Positions 7,326-59,162 are shown, numbered from the whole stretch's first letter. The stretch: 59,162 nucleotides of DNA, filler included, from Basidiobolus ranarum (GCA_040143965.1; 8 parts of 8 records of this genome joined end to end with filler, not necessarily neighbours in it); one strand, 5' to 3'. Program-made: numbers and translations. Notes: generated from the letters alone by a model not told the origin.

Positions 7326-7425
7326 NNNNNNNNNNNNNNNNNNNNNNNNNNNNNNNNNNNNNNNNNNNNTTAATTAATTAANNNNNNNNNNNNNNNNNNN
7401 NNNNNNNNNNNNNNNNNNNNNNNNN
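7326..7425. other. Artificial contig-joining spacer
   Basis: 44 N + TTAATTAATTAA (stops in all six frames) + 44 N. Confidence 0.99.
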
Positions 7426-14748: not shown

Positions 14749-14848
14749 NNNNNNNNNNNNNNNNNNNNNNNNNNNNNNNNNNNNNNNNNNNNTTAATTAA
14801 TTAANNNNNNNNNNNNNNNNNNNNNNNNNNNNNNNNNNNNNNNNNNNN
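14749..14848. other. Artificial contig-joining spacer
   Basis: 44N-TTAATTAATTAA-44N. Confidence 0.99.
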
Positions 14849-22158: not shown

Positions 22159-22258
22159 NNNNNNNNNNNNNNNNNNNNNNNNNNNNNNNNNNNNNNNNNN
22201 NNTTAATTAATTAANNNNNNNNNNNNNNNNNNNNNNNNNNNNNNNNNNNNNNNNNNNN
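22159..22258. other. Artificial contig-joining spacer
   Basis: 44N-TTAATTAATTAA-44N. Confidence 0.99.
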
Positions 22259-27993: not shown

Positions 27994-29355
27994 ATGCTTC
28001 TAAAAAGACTTTTTACCCAGGCCCATACACTTTCTAAAACTACAGCTGCTAGCTTGGTTCGTCCTGCATATGCCTCTATTCATATCCAACAGCGTGCTAG
28101 CTCCACAACTTCTGAGAGCGATACTTTTCACGTATGTTTACATATGTCGTTCGTAATACGTGATATATACGAACCCTCATTCACTTTCTTTCTTCATATG
28201 TTAGGCTTCTAAATTGATTAAGAACCCTAGTACCAAGCTCAAAGAGCTGGTTCCCAATCAGGAGTTGATATTCGGTCATACATTTACTGACAACATGTTA
28301 ATGATAGAATGGGAAGCTAAAAATGGTTGGGGAAAGCCTGCTATCAAGCCATACGGGAAACTCTCTCTCGATCCTAGTGCCGTTGTTTTTCATTATTCCT
28401 TTGAAGTAAGTGGTTGTATCGACGTCGAAGTTTGTTTTAATTCTTTACTTAATTTATTGTGTAGTGTTTTGAAGGTATGAAAGCTTACAAAGATAAGAAA
28501 GGGAGAGTTCGTCTTTTCAGACCTGATTTAAATATGAATCGATTAAGAAGATCTTCAGAGAGACTCACTTTACCCACTTTTGATACCAACGAGCTCATCG
28601 AATGTATCAAAGAGCTTGTTCGTGCGGATGAAAGATGGATTCCATCCGAACGTGGCTATTCACTCTACATTCGTCCCACTATGATTGGTACTTCGGAATT
28701 CCTCGGAGTAGGCCCTAGTGATCGTGCCATGCTATTTGCCATTTGCTGTCCCGTAGGACCTTACTATAAGACAGGCTTTAAAGCAGTCTCTCTTCAAGCT
28801 ACTGTTGATAAGATCCGTGCTTGGCCCGGTGGTACTGGTGATGCCAAAATCGGAGGAAATTATGCACCTGGTATTCTTCCACAAATCAACGCGATGAAAA
28901 AAGGATTCCAACAAAATCTTTGGTTATTCGGAAAAGATAATGAACTTACTGAAGTGGGTACCATGAATTGCTTCGTGTTCCTCGAGAATGAGCATGGTGA
29001 GAAAGAACTCGTCACTCCTCCTCTTAACGGAATGATTCTCCCCGGAGTTACTAGAGATTCTATCTTAGGTTTGGCAAGGGAATGGAATGAATTCAAGGTT
29101 AGCGAGCGTAAAATCACCATGTCCGAGATCATCAAGGCTGAACAAGATGGTCGTCTGATTGAAATGTTCGGTACTGGTACTGCGTGCGTTGTTAGTCCTA
29201 TAAAAATGATTGGTTTCGAAGGCAGAGAAATCAAGGTTCCCTTGGATCCCAAGGATCCCAACACTCAAGCTGGTCCATTGACAAAACGTTTCAATGATAC
29301 ACTATTAGGCATCCAATACGGAGACATTGAGCATCCTTGGTCTGTATTGGTTTAG
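27994..29355 (+). CDS. BAT1: Branched-chain amino acid aminotransferase, probably mitochondrial
   Basis: Exons 27994-28131, 28205-28405, 28465-29355 splice in frame. Motifs FEGMKAY, LFRPD, YIRP, KIGGNY, EVGTMN, LPGVTR, GTGTA. Arg/Ser-rich presequence. Confidence 0.95.
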
Positions 29356-29566: not shown

Positions 29567-29666
29567 NNNNNNNNNNNNNNNNNNNNNNNNNNNNNNNNNN
29601 NNNNNNNNNNTTAATTAATTAANNNNNNNNNNNNNNNNNNNNNNNNNNNNNNNNNNNNNNNNNNNN
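29567..29666. other. Artificial contig-joining spacer
   Basis: 44N-TTAATTAATTAA-44N. Confidence 0.99.
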
Positions 29667-30797: not shown

Positions 30798-32819
30798 TTA
30801 TACTAGTACAGAAACTACGAATTAATAATATATTGAGCGAAAACAATGACAGCGTATTTCATCATTGGCTTACTAATTAATACTGCTGACTAATTTGCAG
30901 TGAAATTGATCTTAACCTTCTCCACATAATAGCATACCTCCAGGTTATTAGTATAAGTATATGAAGAATTAGCGAAGTTAGCACCATTTGGAAGTATAAA
31001 GTGTAAGTAGTGTTCCTAGTCAAGAATTATGGGAAATCTTGCTTAAAGTAGCAACCACAATTCAAAAACAAATAAAATGCTCTCTCCTTAACAATTATGT
31101 TTACTTAATAAAAGTACGAGCTAAATAAGTATTACTAGCAAAATCCGAACATATCAAACTCTGATGTATGAGTAAAATAGCGAAATATGCGTCAAATATG
31201 GCACCAAGTACTTAGGTTTAGTGTATACTACTAGTTGGATCGCTGTTAAATCGCACGATTAAGCTCGATTAATATTTATGTTCAACAGAATAGTGAGCCA
31301 TTAAGCAAGAAATACTACTGACCTAGCTAAAGATATTTTGGAACTAACCGGCATTACTAAAGGAAATAGTAATAAAGCCACTACAGATGATAGAAGCTCT
31401 ATCCAGTTTTGAGAGTTTTAAAGCTAATATCTCATCTCGTTGCTTGCAATATTTTTCATAAACCTATCACTCTCAAGCTCGATGGACTTAGCGAAGCTAG
31501 TTCACCAAAAACGAGTTAGCATTCTATATTGATGATCAATCCGAGTGTTGTACACATCCAAAGAATTCTTAATTGTGGGAGATAAGGCCATGATAGCATC
31601 GAAGAGGAGTCCTATTAATATCTTATCTGGCCGCTGATTTTGTACGGCTATAACTCGGCTTTTACAGTACCGGAGTCAGTGCCTGTCGTAAGTAAAAGAG
31701 CATGATTTGCATAAATCAACTTGAGGAAGTATCAGTCCTAGGAACCCAAGAAAGTGGAAAATAAAATTTCAGCTCGTAAAGATGGCCATTTGTGGGCCCA
31801 GAATTAGGGTATTGTTGGTAATGTTTGAAATTTTATTATTTTAGCTGAGAGAGCTGTCACGTCTCGATAATATACAAAAGACACAATTTGTATGTTTTAA
31901 TTTCCATATAACACATAACATAACATCTGAGCACTCGCGACCCCAATGCTTATTGTTAAAAGTTCATCTTGATTGATACCGACACCATTTCTCTACTCGT
32001 GCCAGCTCTTACTGTTCCTATTGAATGCAGTCAACACGTATTTACTGCTGACCCGGGGTATGTGTAGCTGTAAAAAAGGGTTAAAGCTCGTGGAGACAGT
32101 TAACTGGATACTTTGAAGAGGGTCCTAAGGCATAGAGGAACGATTCAAGGAATACGTAAGAATTCTGGAAGAGTTCAGTCTCAGCTCTCATTATCCAGAT
32201 AATTTAGTAACAAAGTGTGATGTTCCATAGCTGGTGGTATGCTCGGTAATGAGATTGATCACAGTATTGCACTCCAGGAAGAATGGGAAAAGATCGAGAG
32301 GAAACAAGACCTCCCTGCGGAGTTACCAGGCAATAAGGAAGCAAAGATATTTACATAAGTTCACCGGAGTGGATCAATAGTATCAAAAGGTAAGCTTTCC
32401 TCATATATATCATCCAGTCACAATGTAGGTAACGATACAATCGCGGATCTGATTACCAGACTTATACAAAAGATTCCGACTGCCTTTTTGACAACGCTTC
32501 CTGTCCCAATAATAGCTTTTAAGCCCATATTTGTATTTGGGGAAGGTTCAATAAGCAAATACTGGATTAAATATTTATTCAAGTTGAACAATCAGATTAA
32601 TTTATCAGTTAGTAATCAAAAGAAGGATTTTTCAAGTTCGGGTGGGGAAACCACTTTATCCGCTACTCTTTCTCCACCCCGCTTTCTCCACTAGGTAAAT
32701 TGATCAAGTCGAGTGAAGAAAGATCTGAAAGCGAATATAATTACTAATAGGTTCGAAAAGCCGTAGAATATAAGGCCTGTTGGGTTTGAATATTGGTAAA
32801 ATATTTCAAATATCTCATA

Positions 32820-33707
32820 ATGAACCAAAGTATTAAGAATATCGCTGTGGCTGGAGGAAGTGGAGGGCTTGGTGCTTTTATCACGAAGGCACTGATTCGC
32901 AGTAATTATCAAGTGACCGTTCTTACACGTGACACCAAAACTCTAGTACCTGGTGCCAAAACCGTAACCATCGATTATCATAACCACGATGACCTTGTTG
33001 AGGCACTCCGAGGAATTGATGCAATCGTCTCGACCATTTCTGGGACCGCGCTTCTTGACGGCCAAATCATCCTTATCAATGCCGCTGTTGAAGCTGGTGT
33101 TAAGCGTTTCTTACCTTCTGAATTTGGAGTCGACCTTCGTGGACTCGATAACCCAGAAGTTGACTTCAAGATTATGCATGAAGTTGAGCACAATCCCAAA
33201 AGCATTGTCCGTAAGGAGCTCATAAAACATCAGGATACCATGACTTGGACATTTCTCAATACTGGTTTCTTTACCGATACAACTTTACTCCCTGAACTCG
33301 GCTTTGATCTTGCCAACAAGAAGGTTAGCATTGTTGGAGACGGTAATGCTTTAGTGTCCTGGACTACTCGTTATGATGTAGGAGAGTTTGTGGTTGCAAT
33401 TCTCGCGGATTCAGAGAGTCAAAATCAAGAAATTAACCTTGTTGCCGATGTCAAGACTTTAAATGAGATCGTGTCAGATATTGAAAACATCCGAAATATA
33501 AAGCTCTCTGTTACATATCATTCCGCAGAGGAAGCAATTTCTATCCTCAGCAGAACTAAGTTCGAGCATCCATATCTAGCGTTTATTGAAGAGTTGAAGA
33601 GATTTCTTGGCAGTGGATATGCATATCAGAAAATCAACGACATTGCAAGATATACAAATGTCCAAACTACCACTGTCCATGATTTTATCAAGTGTTCACC
33701 TGCTTGA
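32820..33707 (+). CDS. NmrA / isoflavone-reductase-like NAD(P)-binding protein, 295 aa, intronless
   Basis: IAVAGGSGGLG Rossmann motif, AAVEAGVKRFLPSEFG, TTRYDVG. Confidence 0.92.
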   Translation: MNQSIKNIAVAGGSGGLGAFITKALIRSNYQVTVLTRDTKTLVPGAKTVTIDYHNHDDLVEALRGIDAIVSTISGTALLDGQIILINAAVEAGVKRFLPSEFGVDLRGLDNPEVDFKIMHEVEHNPKSIVRKELIKHQDTMTWTFLNTGFFTDTTLLPELGFDLANKKVSIVGDGNALVSWTTRYDVGEFVVAILADSESQNQEINLVADVKTLNEIVSDIENIRNIKLSVTYHSAEEAISILSRTKFEHPYLAFIEELKRFLGSGYAYQKINDIARYTNVQTTTVHDFIKCSPA

Positions 33708-36971: not shown

Positions 36972-37071
36972 NNNNNNNNNNNNNNNNNNNNNNNNNNNNN
37001 NNNNNNNNNNNNNNNTTAATTAATTAANNNNNNNNNNNNNNNNNNNNNNNNNNNNNNNNNNNNNNNNNNNN
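36972..37071. other. Artificial contig-joining spacer
   Basis: 44N-TTAATTAATTAA-44N. Confidence 0.99.
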
Positions 37072-38447
37072 CACTAAAGAAACCGGTACATTTACTCAAT
37101 GTTCAAGCATCCATATGGAGAGAACTAACCCCTTTTACTTAGATCACATGAGTATCAAGCTAGTCACTGGTTCGTTCCGTGGAGTCTTTCGTGTATTTAA
37201 TGTTTACCTTAACGGCGGTATATATGCAGTGTCTGAGGGTAAGCTGCCCATATTCTCAACGTTGGAGAATGCTGTATTTAGCTTCGATTTTTATTTAGAC
37301 GCGGTGTTCAGAACAAAAGATAAATCACCAGCGATTTATGTTAACGTCGTCAACATGAAGGGCTTACCGCAACGACCATGCAAATACAAGTCAAGTGAAG
37401 CCTCCATTGTCGATTCTGAGAATGACCATGTAGATTCGCCCAAGCCCAAACCCAAAACTGAGTCTCATTACTTTATATGTTGCTCTGAAGAGTCTATTAG
37501 AATTCACTTCAATTGCTCCGCAACAAAGCTGCATAAATGTATGATTCGGAAGGAAGATGGCAAGATCGTAAAAGCATCTATTTCTCGGTATCAAGGTACG
37601 TGCAATCTACTCGATGCATTAAAATCCTAAATGAATGGTAGACATAAGAATCTAACTTGTGTGTGTTTATTGCTTAGATCAAAGTTGTTTCGTAGCGCTA
37701 ACTAATGTAGGATTGATCAAGATCTTTTCGTTGCCCAAACTTGCGCATATTATTGATATTCCCATCACGAATTATATCCCTGAAAGGTAAATCTCGCATC
37801 TCACACTTTTACCATATGTTTGCATTCAAAGCTGAATTCCCGGTATTACAGGTTGAAAGATAGTATCATTACTGATGATGGACGTGTTCTTGTATCCGCT
37901 GCTCAATACCAATATCGGGAGTATACTTTCTTCAAGGAGAACTCGTTGTAAGTGTCATTTTGAGCTAACTTGAGATATCAAAGACTCATGCTCTTATTTG
38001 TTCAGCGTCAGTCTGATTCCCAAAGTATATCGCATTTACAACAAAGCAAAGAGAGTGCCCGAGAAGCCCATACTCAATAGCACCTGGTGGTTTGGAGGCG
38101 GTGAAGCAGCATCCAGTCATGATATCAATGAGCTTCGTACGTTATCTATTCATGGCTTTTATACCCTTTGCAATACTAATTGACTAATTGTTCGTTCAGT
38201 CGGTAAGGGTTTCACAGATAGGAAGGCTAAGCAACGAGAACAGCCAGAGAGTAGCCGAGCTCAAGATGAAGCTCAGAGCACTGCCAGTGTTCTAGCTGAT
38301 GCTGGCCGTATGCTAAATGAACGTGGAGAAAAACTCAACCGGCTTCAAGACACTGTCGCCAATATGGAAGCATCATCTGCTGGATTCTTGGATGATATAC
38401 GTGAATATAATAAAAGGATGGCGGCAAAGAAATGGTATCAGCTTTGA
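37072..38447 (+). CDS. 3' exons of Sro7/tomosyn/Lgl-family protein
   Basis: Beta-propeller-like exons, then C-terminal R-SNARE-like motif LNERGEKLNRLQDTVANMEASSAGFLDDIREYNKRMAAKKWYQL*; several GT-AG introns. Confidence 0.8.
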
Positions 38448-38611
38448 TTTACTGATCAGAAATCATGCACATTCTTTCAACAACATTCTACCTAGCATTC
38501 TACCACTGCTTTACTCTAATGGTTATATTCCCTCACAGATAAATATATGTAATACATGAGCAAGAAATATGAACAATACATCTAATTGAGCAAGAAATAT
38601 GGGCAATACAT

Positions 38612-39251
38612 CTAATTTATAACCAACTCCATAAAAGTAGTATCCAACCAACGATCGAATTTGTATCCAACATGATGGAAGGTTCCCACTAATGAAAATC
38701 CAAGTTGCTCGTAGAGTTTAAGAGACCCCACATTTTCTGTAGTGATTCCGGCTATATCAAATCTGGGTTAATATCACTGAGTTTGTCATAAGAATTTACA
38801 CTTCACTGTACCAATTATATTGCAAAAGCCTTGGCTTTTTCCTCGTTGAATCATTTCTTTCATCATTAATTTCCCGAGACCACGGCGACGGTAATCTTGG
38901 TGAATGTAGAGTGAGACCTCCGTTGTACTGTAAGAAACATATTAGAGGATATCTTAGGAGGTTAGGGAAACACTACAGTACAAACCTCTTGAACGCAGGT
39001 TTGTCACGGAACACCCCTAGGCAGCAATAACCGGCAACTTTTCCTTCCGAGGTAGAGTTGTCAATTGCAACAATTAGAGGATACCCTTTACTCTTAAGTG
39101 CATCAAACCAAGCTAGACGGTCTTCCAAGGTTTTTTCTTCATACTCGAAAATGGAAGTGCTATGAAGGATTTCCCAATTGAAAATGTCCAGGATCCCTGG
39201 CACATCTGCGGCTTGACAATCCCGAATCTCTATTTGACCTGTTGTAGACAT
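38612..39251 (-). CDS. GNAT acetyltransferase (phosphinothricin/methionine-sulfoximine acetyltransferase-like), 3 exons
   Basis: EVSLYIHQDYRRRGLGK acetyl-CoA motif, ENVGSLKLYEQLGF, VGYKFDRWLDT; two canonical introns keep the frame. Confidence 0.9.
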
Positions 39252-39561
39252 TCTCTATTCTATTGATACTTTATGGTAGTGGCGAAACCATTGGTTTTAT
39301 ATGATTCAAGTTCATCAAATTTTCCATATATATATAATATATCACATCATTCATATGTTTGGTGATAGGTTCTCGCTTTATCAACTATTTACTAAATTAA
39401 GAGAAGGAATATCTGACTAACTATGTGTAAGATATGCATTTGTGATGTTAGTTGCTGAATTTGTTGATTAAAATGGTGGCTACTTTTTGAAGAAATCATC
39501 ATATAACTCGATATAGTTCCTTACAGTACTTTCTGTTTCTTCCTTAAATTACCTTTTGACC

Positions 39562-40376
39562 ATGTCTAAGAATTCTTCAAAGTGGACCGTGGATTTTTCT
39601 ACTCTAGATCAATCAAGGTTTTATTCTCAACGTTTACTCTGGAAAAGTTTATTCTTCTCTAACCATAGTCATTCTTTGTCAGAGCTCGTAGAAATGAACA
39701 ACTCGATCCTCCTGGTTTCGTGGCTACCTCATCTGGCAACTCTAAAAATGCTACTGTAAATACGCCTTATTTGACTGATGTTTGTTTGAATGTTTCAACC
39801 AACTAAACACATATCTTATAGAAAAACATCAAGCCGGTAGATCCTGGAGTTTCGGCCAACTTAAAGTTGAAGGTATCTTTTTGAACGTTTTTCCAAATTA
39901 AATTAGAATTTTCATTTATCTTTCTCTCTTTCCATCCTTACAGAAAGCATGGGAAGTTTCTTTAGCACCAGCGAAAAACATCCCCATGAACGGTTTTATG
40001 CTCTATATGTCTGGTAGTGGAGTCCAAATTTTCAGTATTATTATTACTGGCATGTTATTCTTCCAACCTTTTCAAGCTTTGATGAACCTTGGTCCTGGTA
40101 TGTAGATATGAAGATTGATATATATATATATAAGCATTATATTGATTTTATTCGAAAGTTTTCGAACGATTTGAAGCGAAGCCCAGCAAAGGTAAAGGTA
40201 AAGTACCCGAAGAACAAGTCAACCTTATGCTTCCTAAACTGGTTTTCATTGCTGTACAATTGACGATAATGTGTATGGGTGTTTACAAATTATCTTCTAT
40301 GGGATTACTACCTACTGCTAGTTCAGATTGGTTAGCATTTATGGACCCAAAGCAAATGTTGGAATTTACTGTTTAA
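39562..40376 (+). CDS. EMC4: ER membrane protein complex subunit 4, 5 exons
   Basis: KAWEVSLAPAKNIPMNGFMLYMSGSGVQIFSI and KLSSMGLLPTASSDWLAF; four canonical introns. Confidence 0.92.
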
Positions 40377-40637
40377 CCACTCAATGATTGAATTATTCCC
40401 TACTATAAAAGAATCCTTTCTTCATTGTTATATCTTTGCTTCAACTCTATCTTTCGATGAATTTGTTATGTTTCTACCAAGCTAGTAATAAAAGAAGAAT
40501 TTTCATTTCTTGAATGCACATATTTTATTGTTTGATATTTTACATGAAATTTCTAAACTTTATTTGCGCTAGGGGAGGAATATTAAGCAGGCGCTTCTAG
40601 TCCCAGAGAATGGAGACTAAGTAGTGGTTTCTAGTCC

Positions 40638-43600
40638 TTAGACCTCACCACCATACATATCTTCAAGATCAAGCTTAGGGTCACCAATTAGTTTTAGTCC
40701 AAACTTATCAGAAAGAATCTTAACCGCACTAGGTCTCAAGAAAGCCGGCAATTGTGGACCAACTCGAATATTTTGCATTCCAAGGGACAATAAAGAAAGC
40801 AAAACCACCACCGCCTTTTGCTCAAACCAAGAGAGAACGATAGACAATGGAAGATCATGAATGGTACAATTCAAAGAATCTGCCAAAGCGGATGCGATTT
40901 GAATGGCAGAATAAGCGTCATTACATTGACCCATGTCAAGTAATCTAGGTATACCTGAATCACCAATCGTTTTCCATTCTAATGAATTAATTCGGAATTT
41001 ACCACAACCAGAAGTAAGAACCACCGCTGTTTCTGGTAACATACGAGCTAGATCTGTGTAGTAACTACGTTCTCCTTCATAACCGTCACATCCACCAATC
41101 ACAAATATTCTACTGATATCTCCCGTTTCAATTGCCTTCAAAATGGCGGGTGCCACATTTAAGATCGCTTCGGAACTAAAACCAACTTGGTAGCTATCTG
41201 TAAGTGGAGTAAAGCTGCTGGGTGGGTATTTGAATTCGGGAGTATTGTCATCAAAGCCTGGAGATTCTAAAGCCACCTTGATAACGGCACTGAAGTCAAG
41301 ATTATCACCAACATGTGGGATGTTTGGCCAGCCCACAACACCCACCGTAAAGAGTCGACCTTCATAGTCATCCTTAGGAGCTGTCAGACAGTTGGTGGTC
41401 ATGACGATAGCACCTGGGAAGTGAGGGAATTCAATGGATTGTCTTTGCCAAGCCACACCGTAATGGCCTGCTAAATGTTTATGTTGACGAAGCTTAGGAT
41501 AACCATGGGCGGGCAACATTTCACCGTGAGTGTAAATATTGATACCTAAGCCCTCGGTCTGCTGGAGCAAAGAGTTCAAGAACATGAAATCGTGACCAGA
41601 TACCAATATACATTTGCCGGGACGTGGTTTAAGGGATACGTTATGGGGGGATTGGGCTCCAAAGGTTGCGTTTGCATTATGCAATACATCCATGCATATT
41701 AAATTGATTTGTCCCAGCTCCATTAAGCAAGCCAAGGTTTTGTCCATATCTTTCGATTCTTTGGTGGTCAAAAAGTAGAATGCGCGATGTACGAACTCAT
41801 AAATACGACGATCTTCATGAGCTAGAACTAGTGCATGATCCGCATAAGCACATAGACCCTTCAAACCATAAACGATCATCTCTTGTAAGCCTACCAAAGC
41901 ATCATTCTTGGTGGCTCTCATGCGACTGAGAATACCCACTTCCTTGCCCTTAGAGACCAGCATGTCCTCAATATCTCCAACTGAGCCTGGAGTGCTATCG
42001 AGGATATCAGAAATACTCTCTGGAACAGGGCATTTCTTGGTACGTAAATTCAATCTCTTGCAAATGGCTTGATATTGAACACTCAAACGTTTGGTATATT
42101 CCCGGCAATCATGATGAAATTGAAGGAATCTACCACTGTCAAAATTGACGTTGGTCAAAGTGGAAAAGGTAGCCTTTAAAGAGTAATGATTTACTTCTGG
42201 GTACTCCACCTCAGATTCTTGCACTTGTTCGGGATGTTCATATTGTAATTGACGTAGATTGTACGCGAACCAGGAGAGGCGTTTAAGGCACGTAATTAAG
42301 AGATCTTGAAGTGCAGCTACTTCTGGAGTTTTACCGCATACACCAATGGTAGTGCATCCACGACCTTGATACGTTTGTTCGCATTGATAGCAGAACATCT
42401 TCGCGTCTTCATATAGATTTGCAGTGGGTACGTCTTCACCTTGAGATTGTCCACCTCTCTTGAGAATGATACTCTTGAGGGCATTCTCCTCATCAACACT
42501 CTTAGCATAGGCCTCTACCTCCCAGCGGTTTTGCTTTCTGAGATTAGCAATGATCTCCAATGACTCCTCATAGGAGACTTGTTTATTGGCTTGTAAGCAC
42601 TCCCCGATGGTGATCTCCATAGCACCTGGAATTAATCCACCAAGTCCACAATATAAGTACATACCATTGTTCTCTAAGTAGTCTGTCACCTTCTCGGGGA
42701 AGTCAAGCATTCTAACCGCGCAGTTCTTTTTGTGATCACGTGAGGCGGCATCAATTACCTCCACGAGACCTTTACGTGTGAAGTTATCCAATTCATCCTT
42801 GAATAGATATTCATGCTCGTAATATCTCATACCATAATAGAGACGAATTCGAGTCATATCATGTCCTTGGTCCAGCAATACTTCACGATGTTGAAGAATT
42901 GAACGGAATACACCGATACCACTACCCAAGGCTACACCTAGAATTGGAGTATCAAGGCGCTCAGGTAGATGAACCAAACCAGCATGAATCTTTAAGAATA
43001 CATTGGGGTTGGCCGAATCGGGGAATTTCTTGGATAAATAGGTCGAAGTTAAACCTTGGAATTTACCACCATTTTCGGTCATCCATTCTTCAACGAAGAA
43101 TACAATATCAATCTTATCCTTGGAGACAAGTGGGGATGATGCAATGGAGTAGTATCTGCTGGAAATCTTAGGAACGTTGCTGATGAATTGCTCCAAAGAA
43201 ATCTTGATCGATGGATAACGTTCGAGAATATCCACAATACTGAACACAGTGGATGTTGACAATTTCATGTACATATTACCAGCCAACATATCGGAGGCTA
43301 AACTCTCAAGAGCCTCTTGCTCGGTCACATTGGAAGCGAGGCAACTGAATCCTTCGATAAGAGCACGACTAGGAATTGAGTTGATATCCAGGTAATTCTT
43401 CAACAATTGACGAATAGTAGCTACAGTGGGCAAAGAGATTGAATCATCAGTGGGTTGAATTTCCACCACTGTATCCAAGTCTACATTCAAAATTTTAGCA
43501 GCTCGGATCACCAAATCATCCGGATTTTCGGGAACAACTTGAATATGACCAGCGACTTCGTACTCTTGATCTATACCACTAATGTCGAATGTAACCATAA

Positions 43601-44216
43601 CACCGGTTCTTTCGTAATCGGGAGAGGTAAGAAGTTTGTTACACACGACGGGTATTTTGGCGTATCCTTCATGTGTAACCTCGGGTACGGGTCTATCAGT
43701 TTGACGAATTTCAACAGAAACTGGTAAGGACATCTTAACATCTGAGCCAGTTAACTTGGTCCAAAATGCCTTTAACCAAGGACGAAATGCGGTTTCGTGA
43801 CCATTAGCATCGTATTCATCACCTAATCCAACTGGCATGATATTAAATCCACCAAGCTCACTCATACGTTGATCTAAAGATTTGGCGGCTTTGTTAAAGT
43901 TATCTTGTAGTGTTCTATTACCGAACCCGAATACAGCGTATCTACTATTACGGAACAGGTTGGAAGAATGATCTTGACGTTTAAGGAAACTCCAGAGAGG
44001 AGCAGCAGAGTCAGGGAATTCGCCGTTGTAGAAAGTACACGTCAAGAATACGATGAGAGGTTCATTTGGTAGACTCTCAAGTTCTACTTCATCCATTCGA
44101 GCCAATTTGACATCAAAACTACGAATTTTGGCGAAAGTTTGAACAATTTTGGCGTAACCCTCGGTAGTACCGGTTTGAGTACCATAAAGGATAAGCATTC
44201 TTGGTTTTTCAGACAT
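40638..44216 (-). CDS. hcp: Diflavin reductase (flavodoxin + FAD/NAD(P)H) fused to hybrid cluster protein (prismane), 1192 aa, intronless
   Basis: First true ATG is 44216. Residues 1-606: YGTQTGTTEGYA, CTFYNGEFPDSA, FGFGN, RYYSIASS, GLTSTYL, GSGIGVFR, YYGMR, YCG. From 42398: MFCYQCEQTYQGRGCTTIGVCGK, TLTNVNFD, SGHD, THGEMLPAHGYP, TTNC, GGCDG, GCGK, GQCNDAYS, SWFEQKA. Confidence 0.96.
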   Translation of the reverse strand: MSEKPRMLILYGTQTGTTEGYAKIVQTFAKIRSFDVKLARMDEVELESLPNEPLIVFLTCTFYNGEFPDSAAPLWSFLKRQDHSSNLFRNSRYAVFGFGNRTLQDNFNKAAKSLDQRMSELGGFNIMPVGLGDEYDANGHETAFRPWLKAFWTKLTGSDVKMSLPVSVEIRQTDRPVPEVTHEGYAKIPVVCNKLLTSPDYERTGVMVTFDISGIDQEYEVAGHIQVVPENPDDLVIRAAKILNVDLDTVVEIQPTDDSISLPTVATIRQLLKNYLDINSIPSRALIEGFSCLASNVTEQEALESLASDMLAGNMYMKLSTSTVFSIVDILERYPSIKISLEQFISNVPKISSRYYSIASSPLVSKDKIDIVFFVEEWMTENGGKFQGLTSTYLSKKFPDSANPNVFLKIHAGLVHLPERLDTPILGVALGSGIGVFRSILQHREVLLDQGHDMTRIRLYYGMRYYEHEYLFKDELDNFTRKGLVEVIDAASRDHKKNCAVRMLDFPEKVTDYLENNGMYLYCGLGGLIPGAMEITIGECLQANKQVSYEESLEIIANLRKQNRWEVEAYAKSVDEENALKSIILKRGGQSQGEDVPTANLYEDAKMFCYQCEQTYQGRGCTTIGVCGKTPEVAALQDLLITCLKRLSWFAYNLRQLQYEHPEQVQESEVEYPEVNHYSLKATFSTLTNVNFDSGRFLQFHHDCREYTKRLSVQYQAICKRLNLRTKKCPVPESISDILDSTPGSVGDIEDMLVSKGKEVGILSRMRATKNDALVGLQEMIVYGLKGLCAYADHALVLAHEDRRIYEFVHRAFYFLTTKESKDMDKTLACLMELGQINLICMDVLHNANATFGAQSPHNVSLKPRPGKCILVSGHDFMFLNSLLQQTEGLGINIYTHGEMLPAHGYPKLRQHKHLAGHYGVAWQRQSIEFPHFPGAIVMTTNCLTAPKDDYEGRLFTVGVVGWPNIPHVGDNLDFSAVIKVALESPGFDDNTPEFKYPPSSFTPLTDSYQVGFSSEAILNVAPAILKAIETGDISRIFVIGGCDGYEGERSYYTDLARMLPETAVVLTSGCGKFRINSLEWKTIGDSGIPRLLDMGQCNDAYSAIQIASALADSLNCTIHDLPLSIVLSWFEQKAVVVLLSLLSLGMQNIRVGPQLPAFLRPSAVKILSDKFGLKLIGDPKLDLEDMYGGEV

Positions 44217-44371
44217 GGTTGTTCCTAAGGCGAAGAGATGAGTAGTTGCGTATTCCAGAGTGGAGCTTCCCCAGGTATTTATTAATAAATAGGCTATTTG
44301 TCTAGACAATGCATACGCTTTCCTAGAAATATCGACTGCACATAAAATCACCAACAGTTTGTAATCTGAAC

Positions 44372-44471
44372 NNNNNNNNNNNNNNNNNNNNNNNNNNNNN
44401 NNNNNNNNNNNNNNNTTAATTAATTAANNNNNNNNNNNNNNNNNNNNNNNNNNNNNNNNNNNNNNNNNNNN
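44372..44471. other. Artificial contig-joining spacer
   Basis: 44N-TTAATTAATTAA-44N. Confidence 0.99.
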
Positions 44472-51770: not shown

Positions 51771-51870
51771 NNNNNNNNNNNNNNNNNNNNNNNNNNNNNN
51801 NNNNNNNNNNNNNNTTAATTAATTAANNNNNNNNNNNNNNNNNNNNNNNNNNNNNNNNNNNNNNNNNNNN
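51771..51870. other. Artificial contig-joining spacer
   Basis: 44N-TTAATTAATTAA-44N. Confidence 0.99.
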
Positions 51871-51994
51871 TGATCCAGTATTGTCAAAATATCTTAAAAG
51901 ATTGATGTCTTGATTGTCACTTTGTTTAGATTAGTATTTAAGCTAAATAAAGTCCACACCATCTGGTGCTTTTCATCCCCCTAACCCTAACCCT
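51871..51994. repeat. Dispersed repeat copy B ending in telomeric CCCTAACCCTAACCCT
   Basis: Matches 29852-29965 up to CCCCCTAA, then continues as CCCTAACCCT. Confidence 0.85.
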
Positions 51995-52414
51995 TACTTC
52001 TTAGACCTTATCACTAAAGAAGAGGCCAATCTTCACACCCTGGCTCGTGGAGAATAGATCAATTATGCCTGGTCAAAAGCCTCCCCTGATAGAACCAAGG
52101 AGTTGGAAGTTGATCAGATTCAACTAGGTAAATGGGTGATATCGGGAAGTCTTTGCTCAAATGTGGTCGTAACTACGAACCTAGTGGTAATGTATAGCAA
52201 GTATCCGTATTTTACGCCATACCTCTAGCTGAAAAGAAGGAAGATTGGCTGAATGGAATGCTTTAAGGATGGGATGGGTTCTCTCAATGAGTTCACTCGA
52301 AGGGCTAATGATTACATCGATGTCCCTGGTGCCCATTACACGCCCATGAACCATCACTACGTTCCTTCGTTCCAGAAGTACCTCTGCGCACAACTTGGCG
52401 GATCAGGAATTTGA
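51995..52414 (+). pseudogene. Remnant C-terminal thioesterase domain of an A-T-TE NRPS-like enzyme (atromentin/terrequinone/furanone synthetase type)
   Basis: Across frames: YFLDLITKEEA..ASPDRTKELEVD..KWV..CGRNYEPSGNV*QVSVFYAIPLAEKKEDWLNGML*GWD/EFTRRANDYIDVPGAHYTPMNHHYVPSFQ; stops and frameshifts. Confidence 0.8.
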
Positions 52415-52806
52415 ACTTTTTTTCTCTTTATGTATACATCTCATATCACACAAACAGAAGAATAAGACACAAACAAAAGAATAAACAATAAATCATCAAA
52501 CTAAACATAGCTCAGGAGACTGCAAAGTCGGATATAAGAAAGTGGTTATAATTTTTGTTGAAACTTAGGTAACGCATGCTGAAGTAGAGGCTGGCCCAGG
52601 GTAGGTAGATCTTATGACTCATCCAATGCAAATAAGCTCTGAATGTGATGTTGAGAGTACTTTATTTTAGAATATACGACTTATAATATATGACTAGATT
52701 GAGATTGATCACATGTATTTGAATTTAATCACCTGCTATTTCAAGCTCAGCCATCAACAATCAGAAAAGGTGTCTACACCATGGCCTAAGCGTAACCCTA
52801 ATCTAC

Positions 52807-55800
52807 TTAACCCCATACATCCTCATTATATTTCCCGTGTTGTTGAAGTTGTTGGAAATAGGTATGTGCTTCTTCTGCACGCAACCCTCCAACCTGCTCG
52901 AATATAGCTGTGACAGTCGTACTAACATCACGAGCCATGCCGGAGGCAGAGCCACATACGTAAAAGGCACCTCCTTTGTTATGGATTAGATCCCACACTA
53001 AGGCCGCAGAAGCTAGTAAGTTGTGCTGAACGTATCTTTTGGGGTCACCAATTCGTGAGAAAGCCATTGTTAACTGATCTAGTGTTCCATCAGCTACAAA
53101 CTCTTCAAGTTCATCTTTATATATGAAGTCGTGTTCAGGAGATCGGCAACCAAAGAATAAATATGTGGTTGACTCGCCACCTTTTTTACTCGATTTACAG
53201 CCCTTCAGTCGACGCTCTTGTAAGAAACCACGGAAGGGTGCGATGCCTGTGCCTGCGCAAACCATGATCAAAGGGACTGTAGGATCCTCGGGTAGATGAA
53301 ATACATCTTTAGCATTCCGAATATTGGCACGTATAGGTTTTCCGGGATTACAGTTGGATAGGAATCCTGTGCACAGACCTTTGTATATCTTGTTTTGAAC
53401 CACATCTTCCACAATCCCCACACACAAGTGGGCGACATTTTTATGAACTTGTGGGCAACTTGCGATGGAGTATCTACGCTTAGTCATAACCGGCATAGCA
53501 CATAAGAAACTCAGAAAGTTGAGTGTTTTAATCATTGGGTAGTTCTTTAAAAGATCTATTAAGCACCGATTTTGTTTTACGAAACCTGTGTAGATCTCGC
53601 TTCCTTTTTCTCCAGTTTGGCACATGGATTCAAAGTATTGCTTTTCCGACTCGGTCTGGGAAATAGCTGATAAGCAGACACCAATGAACTGACGAGAAGG
53701 TGCCGCTTGAAGATCTGCATAGTTAGTTAAAACATGACGAACAGTATGTGGTCCTTTCAAATTGGCAGCCAGGGATCGTGAGCTCAGGTGGGAATTTGAC
53801 GAATCTTCGATTTTAACTTCGAATACTGCATCTAGGGCATAACCGAGTGTGATTGCTACTTCTTCCACTAAGTTGGGATCGTTCTCAGGGAATATTTCCA
53901 GATGATCCCCTGTCTGATAAATTTGATCTTCAGGTAACTGAATCTCCAAATGACGAGTGCTACGACCACTGCTTTCAACATTTTGAAGTTCCATATTTTT
54001 CCGAATAATTGCCAATTCTGGCTCCTTAGGCTGACTTGGTTTGTCTTTGAGGTTTTCTGCTGAAATGAATTGCAATGACACTCCTTTTGTAGGATCTCCT
54101 GAATTGGAAGTAGCTAATGAGCCAAGACTAGCACCTTCCAAGCCAAAATCAGCTAACAAAGCGGCATAAAATCTAGCTAACCATTCAGCAAAATCAGCAT
54201 CAACGTCTGAATCAGCATTACCAGCTCCAACAGGAAACAGTTGCTCTGCTCCGAGAAACTCCATTCTATCATTTACCTTTTTAGGGAAATTTTGATAGGT
54301 TCTCCATTGTTTGTTACCACATCCAAATACAGCGTAACGAAGCCCATTGAACGGTAGAATACCACTCTCTTTGTTTGCACTAATAAATTTGTCAAATTCA
54401 ACTGCATTGTCAGGTGGAAATCCGTTGTATGTGCTGGTAATGATCATAACTATAGGCTTAGTCTTTTCATCGTGGATTTCACCAGATTCGTATTTTCCAT
54501 TGGTCAGTACTTCCCAATCGTCCAAGGATGTTATGTCAACATTGGAAAATCCCAAATTTCTAGCATAGCCAGCTACCTTGTTAGCATACTCTTCTGACAT
54601 GCCCATATTGGAGCCAAAGAGAACTGTAAATTTAGGAAGTTGGATATTTGATGGAGGGGCCTTAGAGATAGTTAAAGCATCTGACAGCTGGGTGAAAGCG
54701 GTCGGCCCTTCAGAAGGTGGCTGTGTTGTCGGTTCAGGGAAACTAGTCCTGCGTTTAATATTGAAGTATAAGTCTTTTGGCTTTATAATTGCACCAGAGG
54801 CTATGTCAATATGGATAGGTTTGTCATCTGGCAATTGGAATTCAAATTTCCTCAACAGCATAGCCTAGAAGGATTGTTAATAAATACTACCAATATGCTA
54901 ATAAAAGACTATATGGCGAAAGTATTGTACCAGAATGATTTTTGCTTCTTGCATTGCGAATTGCAATCCAATACATCCACGAGCCCCGATAGAGAATGGC
55001 AACCAGGAGTATCGTGACCTTTTAGATTCTTCACTAGAGTTGAATCTATCTGGATTAAATACACTAGGATTTTCCCTACGAATCATATTATGTTAGAAAT
55101 GTACATGATGCACTATCACAGGTAAGAGATGTACCAAATATTTGGGTTATGATGCAGGGCATAGATTTGCACTTGCACAACGGTTCCCTCTTCGGCGAAA
55201 TACCCAAAAGGAAGTCTACAGTCCTTTATGCAGCTCTTTTGAAGCAGTGCCAGAGGTGGATACATTCTTAATGTTTCTTTCAACACCTACATTTACATTC
55301 AGTTAGATGGCTGTTGAATGTAACTAACAATCAAAGCTCTATTCACCTGAGTAAGGTACTTGAGGCGCGATATTTGAGCAGTAGTGGGCAGGTCATCATT
55401 GTTAATCCCAACATTGGCAATTTCTTGGAGAACATTTTTCAAGATAGCAGGGTTTTTTGCTAAGCAATACAGGCACCATGAGAGAGTGTTTGACGTAGTC
55501 TCATGACCAGCTATTAAGAAAGTAACCACCTGGTCACGAATCACCTCATCTGGTAATTTCTGGCCGGTGGATTTATCACTAGCATTGAGCATAAACCCAA
55601 GAAGATCTTTAGATTCATCCTCACCCTGTGGACAGCTCTTACGTTGAACAATCACCTAAATGAATAGGAATTTAACAGTTAGTTTGTGGAAGTGCTTAGA
55701 TTTCACTACTACAAGAAGAATACCTCGTCTACGGTATCCTTCATGAGTTTCATCATTCGATCAAATTGATAGTTTGACCATATAGGCAGCAGCTTCCAGT

Positions 55801-56970
55801 ATTGTGAGCGGAAGGCCCTAGTACGAGCTTGACTGTAGTGATGTTAATTTCAAGTAGTTCATATGTAAGCCATTCTAAGCCAACCTACCCTAAACAAAAT
55901 GACATCGCGTCAATCTAGTAAAATGTTACTAAAAGTCATTAAACTTGACTTATATTATATGCTTTACTTACAAATGGATGAATTGGTGAATCCTTCGACT
56001 CCAAGAGTCCGAAATCAAAGCCAAATCCAACGCGCCCAATAGTCTCGAATGCTGTAAATTATTGATCGTAAATCGATATGATCTCTCACTACGAATCATC
56101 AGGAGTCTACTTACTGATCTTTGTCATCCAGGGTGAGATTAAGACAGGTTCTTGTCCTCCACTAATGTCTTCCAGAACATTCACCAGTTTCTTCCCTAAT
56201 TTGGCCATCTCTGTAGCATAAGCCTTTGTTTGATAGTGTTAGTAGCCAAGCTAAATCAATGTGGTACTTTGCCAAATTACCTTCATTGCAGATGCCGAAA
56301 AAGCTGGCATTAGTAGTTTGTGAGCTAGTTTCCATATTTGTTCGTCAGAATCAGTAGTGAACAACCCATCTCCACCGATTGCCTTAACTTCAGCAAATGG
56401 TAAAACGATTTTCTTGGTGAAATATTCGTTTTCTTGAGCAAACAACTCGGCTATGGCTGGGTGATTAGTAGTAAGTGATCTCCGCTGAAAGGAGTACAAT
56501 TGCAATAAAGGGGAATCATATTCTTTGAAGAATTCTGCAACTGATCCAATAACATCGGGTAGTATATAAGGTAGTGTACCAAATAAGGGTACTGTAGGAG
56601 GAGTAGCAATTTCACGATAAGATGTTCCATTTAGGACCACAAAAGCTACATCCTTGGAGATAAGCTGCTCAACAGAGTTGATGGCTTCACCGTCCCTATC
56701 GTGAAACTCAATACCTTCACTACTAGAAATGTTCATTTTTTGTCCACACTCTCTTTTCACATCCTCCATGCTATTATAAGGCTGAATTTGGATGCTTACT
56801 CCGCTTTTACTTTCATCTTCTCCAGAAAATGAGACCCTGAGGGTTGTTTGATTGTCAGTTAGTGCTGTGTCTACTTGGGTTAGACTGTCCGGTAGCGAGT
56901 TTTCACACTTCAAGATAGAACTCTTGGGTGAGAGATCGACACCAGAATCTGAAGAGTATGCAACTGTCAT
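52807..56970 (-). CDS. Self-sufficient cytochrome P450-NADPH reductase fusion (CYP505/CYP102-like) with N-terminal extension, about 9 exons
   Basis: P450 motifs GDGLFT, AGHETT, ETLR, PDRF, PFSIGARGCIG. Reductase motifs FGSNMGMSEEYA, STYNG, FGCGN, RRYSIAS, GTGIAPFRGF, FFGCR, C-terminal DVWG. Confidence 0.95.
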
Positions 56971-58748: not shown

Positions 58749-59162
58749 TCCTATTTCCTTGAGAAGACTCCTTAGCCATATAGCTTATTGAATAGCCATA
58801 GAGCATGCCATATATTCTGCTTCTGTAGTTGAAAATGTGACAGTTTGCTGTTTGTTACTAATCCAGCTTATTGGTCTATAAACTAGCTTAAGCACATATC
58901 CAGTTCTGGACTCATAGTCATATGTATTGTTAGCCTAGGCTGCAGCAGTATATCCTTCCAAAATGAGTGATATGCTATATTGCTTACTAACTTGAGTTCC
59001 ATGATATCTTGTTCCTTTCAGATAGTGTATTATCTGTTTCACAGCTATCCAATGTTCCATTGCAGGATTCTCCATATATTTGCTTATTATGCTTATAGTG
59101 ATTCCAAGACAATATGTTAGTGATCCAATATTTTGCTTTTCAAACTTGGTAGATAGCTAGGT
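58749..59162 (-). mobile_element. Degenerate Ty1/copia pol fragment (RT end + RNase H)
   Basis: KFEKQNIGSLTYCLGI / SKYMENPAMEHWIAVKQIIHYLKGT / LEGY..SRTGYVLKL..PISWISNKQQTVTFSTTEAEYMA..AIWLRSLLKEIG; stops and an internal deletion. Confidence 0.9.

What the first reader, a model, noticed from the sequence alone, without database searches (positions are those of the whole stretch)
40638..44216. Self-sufficient hybrid cluster protein: diflavin reductase fused to HCP in a fungus
Seen: one uninterrupted 1192-aa ORF with a flavodoxin/FAD/NAD(P)H module (aa 1-606) followed by a full HCP. The HCP keeps the cubane motif C-x2-C-x8-C-x5-C and the hybrid-cluster ligand motifs (GHD, HGEM, TTNC, GGCDG, GCGK, GQCND, WFEQK). 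Established: bacterial HCPs act as NO/hydroxylamine reductases under low oxygen and use a separate donor (Hcr or ferredoxin), while CPR-type modules normally serve haem enzymes such as P450BM3 and NOS. Inference: a single-chain NAD(P)H -> FAD -> FMN -> [4Fe-4S] -> hybrid cluster enzyme for nitrosative-stress defence or anaerobic nitrogen metabolism. No targeting peptide is visible, so it is probably cytosolic. I know of no characterised enzyme with this architecture, but cannot search to confirm.
Basis: partly seen in the sequence, partly recalled or inferred. Interest (0 to 1): 0.92.

Follow-up and report, generated by a model that had tools for sequence, protein, structure and literature searches.

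The report
Reductase-fused hybrid cluster protein, Basidiobolus-type fungus
This fungal gene really does join an NADPH-using two-flavin reductase to a complete iron-sulfur "hybrid cluster" enzyme in one chain, but the same fusion is already catalogued in many eukaryotes and simply has never been studied at the bench.

Summary
An uninterrupted 1192-codon frame lies on the minus strand at 40638-44216. It encodes Flavodoxin_1, FAD_binding_1 and NAD_binding_1 followed by a full-length HCP, and every metal ligand is present.

The window is eight ~7.3-kb contigs joined by N/TTAATTAATTAA linkers. The gene's true contig is 37072-44371, and its neighbours there are intron-split eukaryotic genes.

The protein is 88-91% identical over the HCP part to annotated Basidiobolus proteins. 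The novelty claim is overstated:
- 75 of the 120 listed long HCP homologues carry the same fusion. They come from fungi, oomycetes, ichthyosporeans, Chromera and protist transcriptomes.
- The fused HCP domains form one clade.
- The reductase half has no close stand-alone relative and no prokaryote relative.
- One paper footnotes such a fusion. My ten literature searches found no biochemical characterisation.

The likely function is a self-sufficient NADPH-driven NO or hydroxylamine reductase. This is inferred, not shown. The Cys motif is class-I type, and a 2023 paper says the donors for that class remain unknown, so the fusion points to a candidate donor type.

Interest is moderate. I file it as a new member of a catalogued but uncharacterised family.

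The parts
40638..44216 (-). Whole coding sequence of the diflavin reductase-HCP fusion. It has 1192 codons plus a stop at 40638-40640, in a single exon.
   Evidence: Searches show the open frame. One search shows four Pfam domains in order. Searches show it is colinear with 40 other fused proteins.
43776..44192 (-). FMN-binding flavodoxin-like domain (aa 9-147), with the phosphate loop T13-Q-T-G-T17.
   Evidence: Pfam PF00258, E 3.5e-30. It aligns to the rat CPR FMN domain. T15 and G16 are present in 40 of 41 fused proteins.
43038..43658 (-). FAD-binding and connecting domain (aa 187-393), with R354-x-Y356-S357.
   Evidence: Pfam PF00667, E 1.5e-45. R354 and Y356 are present in 41 of 41 fused proteins and S357 in 40 of 41.
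42507..42935 (-). NAD(P)H-binding domain up to the C-terminal aromatic residue (aa 428-570). It contains G431-S-G433, R464, S492-R493, C523, E568 and Y570.
   Evidence: Pfam PF00175, 24.9 bits against a cut-off of 22. E568 is present in 41 of 41 fused proteins. Position 570 is Y in 19 and F in 22 of 41.
42399..42506 (-). Inter-module linker (aa 571-606). D575 and N578 are invariant. Residues 578-594 are predicted to be flexible.
   Evidence: D575 and N578 are present in 41 of 41 fused proteins. pLDDT is below 50 for residues 578-594.
40641..42398 (-). Complete hybrid cluster protein module (aa 607-1192). It begins with a retained Met (M607).
   Evidence: Pfam PF03063, E 1.6e-135, covering profile positions 1-512 of 513. 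NCBIfam equivalogs score above their cut-offs. The model superposes on solved HCPs with target-normalised TM-score 0.92-0.93.
42336..42392 (-). Cubane [4Fe-4S] motif C609-x2-C612-x8-C621-x5-C627, with the short, class-I-type spacing.
   Evidence: 41 of the 42 fused rows show the same spacing.
37072..44371 (.). The true contig that carries the gene (7300 bp). It is bounded by artificial N/TTAATTAATTAA linkers.
39902..40373 (+). Neighbouring EMC4 gene in two exons (39902-40102 and 40146-40373), convergent with the fusion gene. It marks the contig as eukaryotic.
   Evidence: Pfam PF06417, E 2.3e-20 for profile positions 11-61 and E 2.5e-16 for positions 63-117, in two different frames.
38615..39254 (-). 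Neighbouring GNAT acetyltransferase gene, split into three reading-frame pieces.
   Evidence: Pfam PF00583 and PF13420 matches on two of the three pieces.

Best explanation
This is an intact, single-exon nuclear gene of a Basidiobolus-type fungus. It encodes a cytosolic, self-sufficient hybrid cluster protein.

The N-terminal 570 residues form a soluble diflavin reductase. It should take a hydride from NADPH onto FAD and pass single electrons to FMN. A ~35-residue tether, partly flexible, would let the FMN domain swing to the N-terminal [4Fe-4S] cubane of the HCP module. The cubane would then feed the hybrid Fe-S-O cluster. There NO would be reduced to N2O, or hydroxylamine to ammonium, as protection against nitrosative stress in low-oxygen habitats.

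Shown here:
- the architecture
- the presence of every cofactor-binding and ligand residue
- the eukaryotic context of the contig
- the single origin and wide eukaryotic spread of the fusion

Inferred:
- the direction and path of electron flow
- the preference for NADPH
- the substrate
- the cytosolic location
For: Architecture and intactness
- There are four ordered Pfam domains, and the HCP equivalogs score above their cut-offs.
- The cubane Cys and seven hybrid-cluster ligand positions align to D. vulgaris HCP. They are conserved in 38-41 of 41 fused proteins.
- The FMN loop, the RxYS FAD motif, R464, E568 and an aromatic residue at 570 are conserved.
- The AlphaFold2 model has mean pLDDT 83.8. 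Its HCP half matches solved HCPs (target-normalised TM-score 0.92-0.93). Its reductase half matches closed CYPOR (0.84). Only the linker (578-594) and residues 742-747 fall below pLDDT 50.

Not an artefact
- The protein is colinear end to end with 40 other fused proteins, including invariant linker residues D575 and N578.
- These proteins come from independent genomes. Several are labelled as assembled transcripts (TRINITY and MMETSP names).
- GC and GC3 are alike in the two halves: 0.421/0.393 and 0.428/0.375.
- The neighbours are intron-split eukaryotic genes, namely EMC4 and a GNAT.

Dedicated pairing
- The HCP domains of all 42 fused rows, plus three short derivatives, form one clade with SH-aLRT 96.
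- The reductase half has only 9 shorter hits. Three of them are truncated Aphanomyces fragments. The five longer remaining hits are 25-29% identical, and one 241-aa fragment is 33% identical over 28% of the query.
- None of 45 pattern matches in prokaryote species genomes was confirmed.
- This organism's own P450-linked reductase is only 25% identical.

Function by homology
- E. coli Hcp with its reductase Hcr is a high-affinity NO reductase, and Hcp has hydroxylamine reductase activity. I saw these titles in reference lists and recall their content.

Location
- Only 7 residues precede the first flavodoxin strand.
Against: - There are no expression data for this organism. Only 155 bp lie upstream before the contig ends, so an upstream exon cannot be strictly excluded. 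However, the three named Basidiobolus proteins start at the same place.
- The AlphaFold2 model has a pTM of only 0.56, so the relative placement of the two halves is not defined.
- The position of rat CPR Tyr178, which as I recall stacks on the FMN, is not a Tyr here (GNRTLQDNFN).
- The 2'-phosphate Arg (R493) is present in only 7 of 41 family members; 27 have His. NADPH preference is therefore uncertain across the family.
- The physiological substrate of HCPs is itself debated. NO, hydroxylamine, peroxide and S-nitrosylation have all been proposed (recalled).
Confidence: 0.7

Rival explanations
1. The fusion is an artefact. Either two adjacent genes were read through, or the sequence is a chimeric assembly or a bacterial contaminant contig.
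For: The assembly is fragmentary: the contigs are ~7.3 kb and were joined artificially. The gene has no introns, although its neighbours do. One relative in GenBank is flagged UNVERIFIED_CONTAM.
Against: There is no stop across 1192 codons. 75 of 120 listed long homologues have the same order of domains. The linker residues are conserved. Eukaryote-only EMC4 lies 260 bp away on the same contig. The two halves have matching composition. No prokaryote relative of the reductase half was found.
Confidence: 0.02
2. The fusion is real, but the reductase does not drive NO or hydroxylamine reduction. The enzyme might instead act as a peroxidase or an S-nitrosylase. It might act in nitrogen assimilation, for example detoxifying hydroxylamine from nitrite reduction. 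Or the diflavin module might mainly serve other acceptors.
For: The physiological role of HCP is unsettled (recalled). A 2021 review proposes ferredoxin re-oxidation and hydroxylamine reduction for algal HCP4 (PMC8003979 passage). Diflavin reductases are promiscuous donors (recalled). Two nested relatives have lost part or all of the reductase: P0032 keeps only the FMN domain and P0054 keeps none. HCP can therefore work with other donors.
Against: Gene fusion and strict co-inheritance across 41 full-length proteins point to a dedicated pair. So does the lack of a stand-alone form of this reductase. All ligands of the catalytic cluster are retained. None of this separates NO from NH2OH as the substrate.
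Confidence: 0.2
3. The gene is a silent or decaying recent acquisition and is not expressed.
For: The gene has no introns in an intron-containing neighbourhood. No transcript evidence is available.
Against: The 1192-codon frame is intact and all functional residues are kept. Orthologues at 86-90% full-length identity occur in two other Basidiobolus species, with two paralogues in B. meristosporus. This implies retention since before those species split.
Confidence: 0.05

Closest known systems
Annotated diflavin-HCP fusion proteins of Basidiobolus meristosporus CBS 931.73 and B. ranarum (P0003, P0004, P0005)
   Same: They have the same domain order and length (1195-1197 aa) and the same start. 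Full-length identity is 86-90%. The window's protein is sister to P0003, with SH-aLRT 98-99.
   Different: They differ only by point changes and a slightly shorter C-terminus. None of these proteins has been characterised, as far as my searches show.
E. coli Hcp-Hcr two-component system (class II HCP, PDB 7de4, plus an NADH:HCP oxidoreductase)
   Same: The HCP module gives its best PDB sequence match to 7de4 (E 4e-137), and the model matches it with a target-normalised TM-score of 0.92. The logic is the same: pyridine nucleotide, then flavin, then the cubane, then the hybrid cluster (PMC10502027 passage).
   Different: Hcr is a separate protein. As I recall, it carries FAD and a [2Fe-2S] cluster and uses NADH. 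Here the donor is fused, is a FAD+FMN diflavin reductase, and shows no Fer2 or Hcr-type domain. The Cys motif is Cx2Cx8Cx5C, not the class II Cx2Cx11Cx6C. It therefore lacks the protrusion said to serve Hcr.
Class I HCPs (D. vulgaris 1e2u, D. desulfuricans 1gn9, M. thermolithotrophicus 8cnr)
   Same: They share the same short Cys-motif spacing, the same seven hybrid-cluster ligand positions and the same monomer-type fold with outer helices.
   Different: Their physiological electron partner is stated to be unknown. Here a candidate donor is covalently attached. Sequence scores are lower than to E. coli HCP (386 against 461 bits).
Self-sufficient diflavin fusion enzymes: P450BM3/CYP102 and CYP505, nitric oxide synthase, and pyruvate:NADP+ oxidoreductase (PFO + CPR domain)
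   Same: They use the same FMN/FAD/NADPH module (PDB matches to CPR, NOS and BM3 reductases at E 1e-50 to 1e-55). They follow the same principle of tethering the reductase to its acceptor. PNO shows that the module can partner an Fe-S enzyme.
   Different: In those enzymes the reductase is C-terminal to the catalytic domain. Here it is N-terminal. The acceptor is an HCP cubane rather than haem. In PNO the electrons flow the other way, towards NADP+. Identity to any of these reductases is 23-26% (Foldseek), and 25% to this organism's own P450-linked reductase.
Rubredoxin-HCP fusion of Methanobacteriales (class III, M. marburgensis HCP)
   Same: It is a natural N-terminal fusion of a small redox domain to HCP through a flexible linker, sitting near the cubane (PMC10502027 passage).
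   Different: The fused domain is rubredoxin, not a flavoprotein. The HCP is a class III homodimer. It has no pyridine-nucleotide module, so it is not self-sufficient.

Membership tests
Hybrid cluster protein / hydroxylamine reductase (Pfam PF03063; NCBIfam TIGR01703, NF003658) | Full-length match above the curated cut-offs. | tested here: met
   PF03063 scores 453 bits against a cut-off of 27, over profile positions 1-512 of 513. NF003658 scores 638 against 367 and TIGR01703 scores 610 against 361.
Hybrid cluster protein / hydroxylamine reductase | N-terminal four-Cys motif for the [4Fe-4S] cubane. | tested here: met
   C609, C612, C621 and C627 are present. Each is conserved in 40 of 41 fused proteins.
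Hybrid cluster protein / hydroxylamine reductase | Seven hybrid-cluster ligands (D. vulgaris H244, E268, C312, C406, C434, C459, E494). | tested here: met
   They align to H875, E899, C943, C1043, C1071, C1098 and E1132 (counted). That these are the ligands is recalled. PMC10502027 states that there are seven conserved ligands.
Hybrid cluster protein / hydroxylamine reductase | HCP three-domain fold. | tested here: met
   The AlphaFold2 model matches 7de4, 1e1d and 1gn9 with target-normalised TM-score 0.92-0.93 and rmsd 3.1 A.
Hybrid cluster protein / hydroxylamine reductase | NO or hydroxylamine reductase activity and the characteristic EPR signals. | not testable with these tools
   This needs anaerobically purified protein.
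Class II HCP (the Hcr-dependent, E. coli type) | Extended Cys motif Cx2Cx11Cx6C, which forms the N-terminal protrusion. | tested here: not met
   The spacing here is Cx2Cx8Cx5C. E. coli 7de4 shows the two insertions in the alignment. Only P0131 and P0143 in my set have the long spacing.
Class III HCP | Absence of the ~100-residue middle (outer-helix) region. | tested here: not met
   The alignment to class I and II structures is continuous over query residues 1-584. The class III chains 7e0l and 7wsx align only from query residue 171.
Diflavin reductase family (CPR / CysJ / NOS-reductase / BM3-reductase) | Flavodoxin-like FMN domain, then FAD-binding domain with connecting domain, then NAD(P)H domain, in that order. 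| tested here: met
   PF00258, PF00667 and PF00175 occur in order. The reductase half of the model matches closed CYPOR with target-normalised TM-score 0.84.
Diflavin reductase family | FAD motif R-x-Y-S, and a C-terminal aromatic residue stacking on FAD with an acidic residue two positions before it. | tested here: met
   R354, Y356, S357, E568 and Y570 are present. That this stretch corresponds to the C-terminal CPR/CysJ motif is partly recalled.
Microsomal NADPH-cytochrome P450 reductase (canonical CPR) | N-terminal membrane anchor ahead of the FMN domain. | tested here: not met
   Only 7 residues precede the first flavodoxin strand.
Sulfite reductase flavoprotein CysJ (TIGR01931) | Score above the equivalog cut-off. 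| tested here: not met
   The score is 186.6 bits against a cut-off of 668. The name 'sulfite reductase' used in the PMC8003979 footnote therefore describes a resemblance, not membership.
Hcr (NADH:HCP oxidoreductase) | FNR-like FAD/NAD module with a C-terminal [2Fe-2S] ferredoxin domain. | tested here: not met
   No Fer2-type or FAD_binding_6 match appears among the four Pfam families found at E <= 0.01. The Hcr domain composition is recalled.

The most novel reading that the evidence does not exclude
The diflavin-HCP fusion is a eukaryote-only invention with a single origin. It has moved between distant eukaryotes: three separate fungal lineages, ichthyosporeans, oomycetes, a glaucophyte, Chromera and marine protists. 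It is the first self-sufficient HCP, a one-chain NADPH:NO (or hydroxylamine) oxidoreductase. As a 'Rosetta-stone' fusion, it also suggests that an FMN or flavodoxin-type donor is the long-sought electron partner of HCPs with the short, class-I-type Cys motif.
Probability: 0.45. Interest if true: 0.65.

Novelty: new member of a known kind. Interest (0 to 1): 0.48.

Why it matters
HCPs are widespread, yet both their physiological role and their electron donors are unsettled. A 2023 structural paper says the partners of class I and class III HCPs remain unknown.

A natural fusion that attaches a complete NADPH-FAD-FMN chain to an HCP with the class-I-type motif gives a ready-made single-polypeptide system. 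With it one could measure:
- which substrate is turned over, NO or NH2OH
- at what affinity
- through which docking surface electrons enter

For eukaryote biology it would add a route of NO detoxification, and perhaps of N2O production, in early-diverging fungi, oomycete and ichthyosporean animal associates and marine protists. That route would be distinct from P450nor, flavohaemoglobin and flavodiiron proteins.

The patchy distribution is also a clean case for studying gene transfer between eukaryotes. Fungal monophyly is rejected with p 1.9e-71.

The window's own copy adds little beyond its annotated Basidiobolus orthologues.

Tried and rejected
- **Docking test.** I ran the FMN domain (aa 1-160) against the HCP module (aa 600-1192) with complex prediction. 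The score was 0.00 and the tool returned 'no answer'. The controls were not run and my alignment was not used. This says nothing either way.
- **Expression and junction reads.** The junction is supported only by orthologues.
- **Whole-genome search.** No genome is held for this window. Copy number and Fe-S maturation genes could not be examined.
- **Prokaryote origin of the reductase half.** The scan of genome contigs gave 45 pattern matches, and none was confirmed. The method finds close relatives only.
  - 'hybrid-cluster protein' + 'diflavin' gave 0 papers.
  - 'hybrid cluster protein' + 'cytochrome P450 reductase' gave 1 paper, on the anaerobic parasite Spironucleus salmonicida. I saw only the listing, not the text.
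  - Other term combinations gave only the Cyanophora footnote.
  - 'Basidiobolus' + 'hybrid cluster' gave two papers, seen as listings only (one on Basidiobolus genomes, one on secondary-metabolite clusters). I guessed the term there means 'hybrid' biosynthetic gene clusters and did not open them.
  - The taxon-name search returned 329 papers. None of the 15 listed holds the HCP term, so it was uninformative.
- **Papers I could not see.** van Lis et al. 2020 (FEBS J) is not held. I did not request Hagen's HCP review. Both are outside what I could search. Either could mention the fusion, as could the supplementary sequence files of PMC8003979.
- **Fungal vertical inheritance.** This was rejected by the AU test. 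That tree used the simpler LG+G4 model, and I named the group 'fungi' after seeing an earlier tree.
- **The other seven contigs as context.** I rejected this once the linkers were seen.


Full report
**1. What is in the sequence**

The ATG is at 44216, the stop at 40638-40640, and there are 1192 codons.

Pfam finds Flavodoxin_1 (aa 9-147), FAD_binding_1 (187-393), NAD_binding_1 (428-530, marginal at 24.9 bits against a cut-off of 22) and Prismane (607-1184, E 1.6e-135). The two NCBIfam hydroxylamine-reductase equivalogs score 638 and 610 bits, well above their cut-offs. The CysJ equivalog scores 187 bits against a cut-off of 668, so the reductase is CysJ-like but is not CysJ.

In the HMMER alignment to D. 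vulgaris HCP I counted residues H244, E268, C312, C406, C434, C459 and E494. They fall on H875, E899, C943, C1043, C1071, C1098 and E1132. That those residues are the ligands is recalled. A 2023 paper confirms that there are seven conserved ligands.

**2. The window is a concatenation**

N runs and TTAATTAATTAA six-frame stop linkers divide the window into eight pieces of 7325 to 7292 bp, in descending order. The gene's real contig is 37072-44371. Nothing outside it is a neighbour.

On that contig lie three other features:
- an EMC4 gene in two frames (Pfam E 2e-20 and 2.5e-16, covering contiguous profile segments)
- a GNAT acetyltransferase in three pieces
- a synaptobrevin-like R-SNARE tail (25.1 bits, just under the 26.4 cut-off)

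EMC4 is a eukaryotic ER-complex subunit, and the split frames indicate short introns. The contig is therefore eukaryotic and not a bacterial contaminant. The fusion gene itself has no intron. GC and GC3 are alike in the two halves: 0.421/0.393 and 0.428/0.375.

**3. Whose gene it is**

Searching long proteins (655-2086 aa) with the HCP part gave 181 hits, of which 120 were listed. The top three are 'hybrid cluster protein' from Basidiobolus meristosporus CBS 931.73 (two paralogues, 91% and 88%) and a B. ranarum protein (89%). Full-length identity is 86-90%. The window's protein is sister to one B. meristosporus paralogue, with SH-aLRT 98-99. The host is thus a Basidiobolus-type fungus (phylum Basidiobolomycota in the NCBI taxonomy).

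**4. How common the fusion is**

Of the 120 listed rows, 75 carry FAD_binding_1 plus Prismane, and 72 of those also carry Flavodoxin_1 (my count). Named sources are:
- Fungi: Gonapodya (two species, two copies each), Hyaloraphidium, Polychytrium, Podochytrium, and a Siphonaria record flagged UNVERIFIED_CONTAM.
- Oomycetes: Aphanomyces, Saprolegnia, Achlya and Thraustotheca.
- Other named organisms: Sphaeroforma arctica, Chromera velia and Chrysophaeum taylorii.
- EukProt and MMETSP transcript models. I read the labels tig00000882, CFRG and Hpha as Cyanophora, Creolimax and Hemistasia from memory.

Against 1.84 billion representatives clustered at 50% identity, seven full-length fused representatives appear among the best 150 hits, plus two partial ones.

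**5. One origin**

I built a tree of 83 HCP domains (IQ-TREE quick search, LG+C20 mixture model, 569 columns). I left out Tetrabaena P0015 as a multi-piece model. All 42 fused rows, together with three short non-fused rows, form one clade with SH-aLRT 96. That clade sits among eukaryotic HCPs. The nearest stand-alone bacterial HCPs (46-48% identity; the named ones are Verrucomicrobia, Kiritimatiellae, Planctomycetota, SAR324 and Elusimicrobiota) lie outside.

Of the three non-fused rows, two look like secondary derivatives. P0032 keeps the FMN domain and the end of the linker but lacks the FAD/NADPH part. P0054 keeps only the end of the linker. For the third, P0124, the match to the query begins only at the HCP Met, so one search shows no retained linker.

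The 41 full-length proteins align colinearly, with D575 and N578 in the linker invariant.

The reductase half has no close stand-alone form:
- Only 9 shorter hits were found. Three are truncated Aphanomyces fragments. The five longer remaining hits are 25-29% identical, and one 241-aa fragment is 33% identical over 28% of the query.
- None of 45 pattern matches in prokaryote species genomes was confirmed.
- This organism's own P450-linked reductase is 25% identical.

**6. Not simply vertical**

On a full-length tree (30 rows, 1176 columns, LG+G4, quick search) the fungi fall into three separate groups:
- monoblepharids
- Basidiobolus
- chytrids, which sit next to the ichthyosporeans, with the oomycetes as sister to that pair

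Forcing the fungi into one clade costs 259 log-likelihood units (AU p 1.9e-71). There are caveats: the model is simple, the search was quick, and ancient paralogy with losses is not excluded.

**7. Mechanism**

The reductase keeps these features:
- the FMN phosphate loop (T-Q-T-G-T)
- the RxYS FAD motif
- R464
- the Ser-Arg pair (S492-R493) that, as I recall, binds the 2'-phosphate in CPR
- C523
- E568 and the aromatic Y570, which close the module

R493 is present in only 7 of 41 relatives; 27 have His. The position of CPR Tyr178 is not a Tyr.

The AlphaFold2 model, built from the 41-sequence alignment, has mean pLDDT 83.8 and pTM 0.56. Only residues 578-594 in the linker and 742-747 fall below pLDDT 50. 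By Foldseek the HCP half matches solved HCPs (target-normalised TM-score 0.92-0.93) and the reductase half matches closed CYPOR (0.84). No PDB entry covers both halves; the query-normalised TM-score never exceeds 0.44.

The picture is two well-folded modules on a partly flexible tether. This is compatible with an FMN domain that shuttles between FAD and the HCP cubane, but the docking itself is not shown.

The Cys motif is the short Cx2Cx8Cx5C type in 41 of 42 fused rows and in the nearest bacterial HCPs. It is not the long class II motif. [quoted passage not shown] The same paper describes a natural rubredoxin-HCP fusion.

Only 7 residues precede the flavodoxin fold here, so a cytosolic location is likely. 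Many members of the second subclade (clade B) start with MMRR/MLRR-type extensions of 12-101 residues, which suggests organellar forms.

**8. What is known**

I found one explicit mention in print. [quoted passage not shown] Andersson et al. 2006 (PMC1484493) treat HCP transfer into protists, and my term search of the text found no mention of a fusion.

No search returned a characterised enzyme of this architecture. The FEBS J paper on algal HCPs is not held. I did not request Hagen's HCP review. Supplements are closed. Any of these could contain a mention.

Precedent for a CPR-type module joined to an Fe-S enzyme exists in pyruvate:NADP+ oxidoreductase (PMC6993867 passage).

**9. Verdict**

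The gene is an orthologue of already annotated Basidiobolus proteins. It belongs to a catalogued but uncharacterised, eukaryote-wide family.

Its value lies in the family. It is a ready-made self-sufficient HCP that could settle both donor and substrate questions, and it is a clear case of a patchily distributed eukaryotic fusion gene.

Noticed in passing
window 7326-7425, 14749-14848, 22159-22258, 29567-29666, 36972-37071, 44372-44471, 51771-51870: Seven 100-bp artificial joints (N44 + TTAATTAATTAA + N44) split the window into eight contigs of 7325 to 7292 bp, in descending size. Any gene-neighbourhood argument across these joints is invalid.
   Followed up: yes
window 52807-56997, minus strand (last contig, 51871-59162): This looks like a second self-sufficient redox fusion. 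Intron-split cytochrome P450 exons lie at 56254-56997, 55302-55655, 55119-55286 and 54901-55092, covering Pfam p450 profile segments 4-109, 228-327, 327-377 and 378-431. They run into a 685-aa frame with Flavodoxin_1, FAD_binding_1 and NAD_binding_1. The arrangement resembles CYP505/P450BM3-type enzymes (that name is recalled). Its reductase is only 25% identical to the HCP-fused one.
   Followed up: partly
proteins P0032 (756 aa) and P0054 (676 aa), from metagenome and MMETSP sources: Two relatives are nested inside the fused clade. P0032 keeps only the FMN domain and the end of the linker in front of HCP. P0054 keeps only the end of the linker, behind an unrelated N-terminus of MLRR type. 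They may be natural 'half' and 'zero' reductase derivatives, or they may be gene-model errors.
   Followed up: partly
proteins P0079, P0082, P0090, P0092, P0094, P0101 (HD domain + HCP); P0095 (HCP + AraC HTH); P0099 (Rrf2 + HCP): Other HCP fusions of ~675-840 aa appear among the long homologues. An HD (PF01966) domain or a transcription-factor domain is joined to HCP. In the tree the ones I sampled group with bacterial HCPs.
   Followed up: no
fused proteins of clade B (e.g. P0035, P0039, P0046, P0076, P0080) and Gonapodya P0027: These have N-terminal extensions of 84-101 residues (87 in Gonapodya P0027). The clade B ones begin MMRR, MLRR or MR(K/R), and shorter extensions of 12-39 residues occur in other clade B members. 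The extensions are absent from the Basidiobolus, oomycete and ichthyosporean forms. This suggests organelle-targeted versions of the same enzyme.
   Followed up: partly
window 3646-5865 (+), 28465-29355 (+), 32790-33707 (+): Other long frames lie on other contigs of the window: a subtilase with PA and Fn3-like domains, a class IV aminotransferase, and an NmrA-like protein.
   Followed up: no
window 38184-38444 (+), with 37073-37630 (+) upstream: A synaptobrevin-like R-SNARE motif (Pfam 25.1 bits, cut-off 26.4) sits at the end of a multi-exon gene whose upstream 185-aa piece has no Pfam match. It may be a tomosyn/Sro7-type gene, but that is a guess from memory.
   Followed up: no
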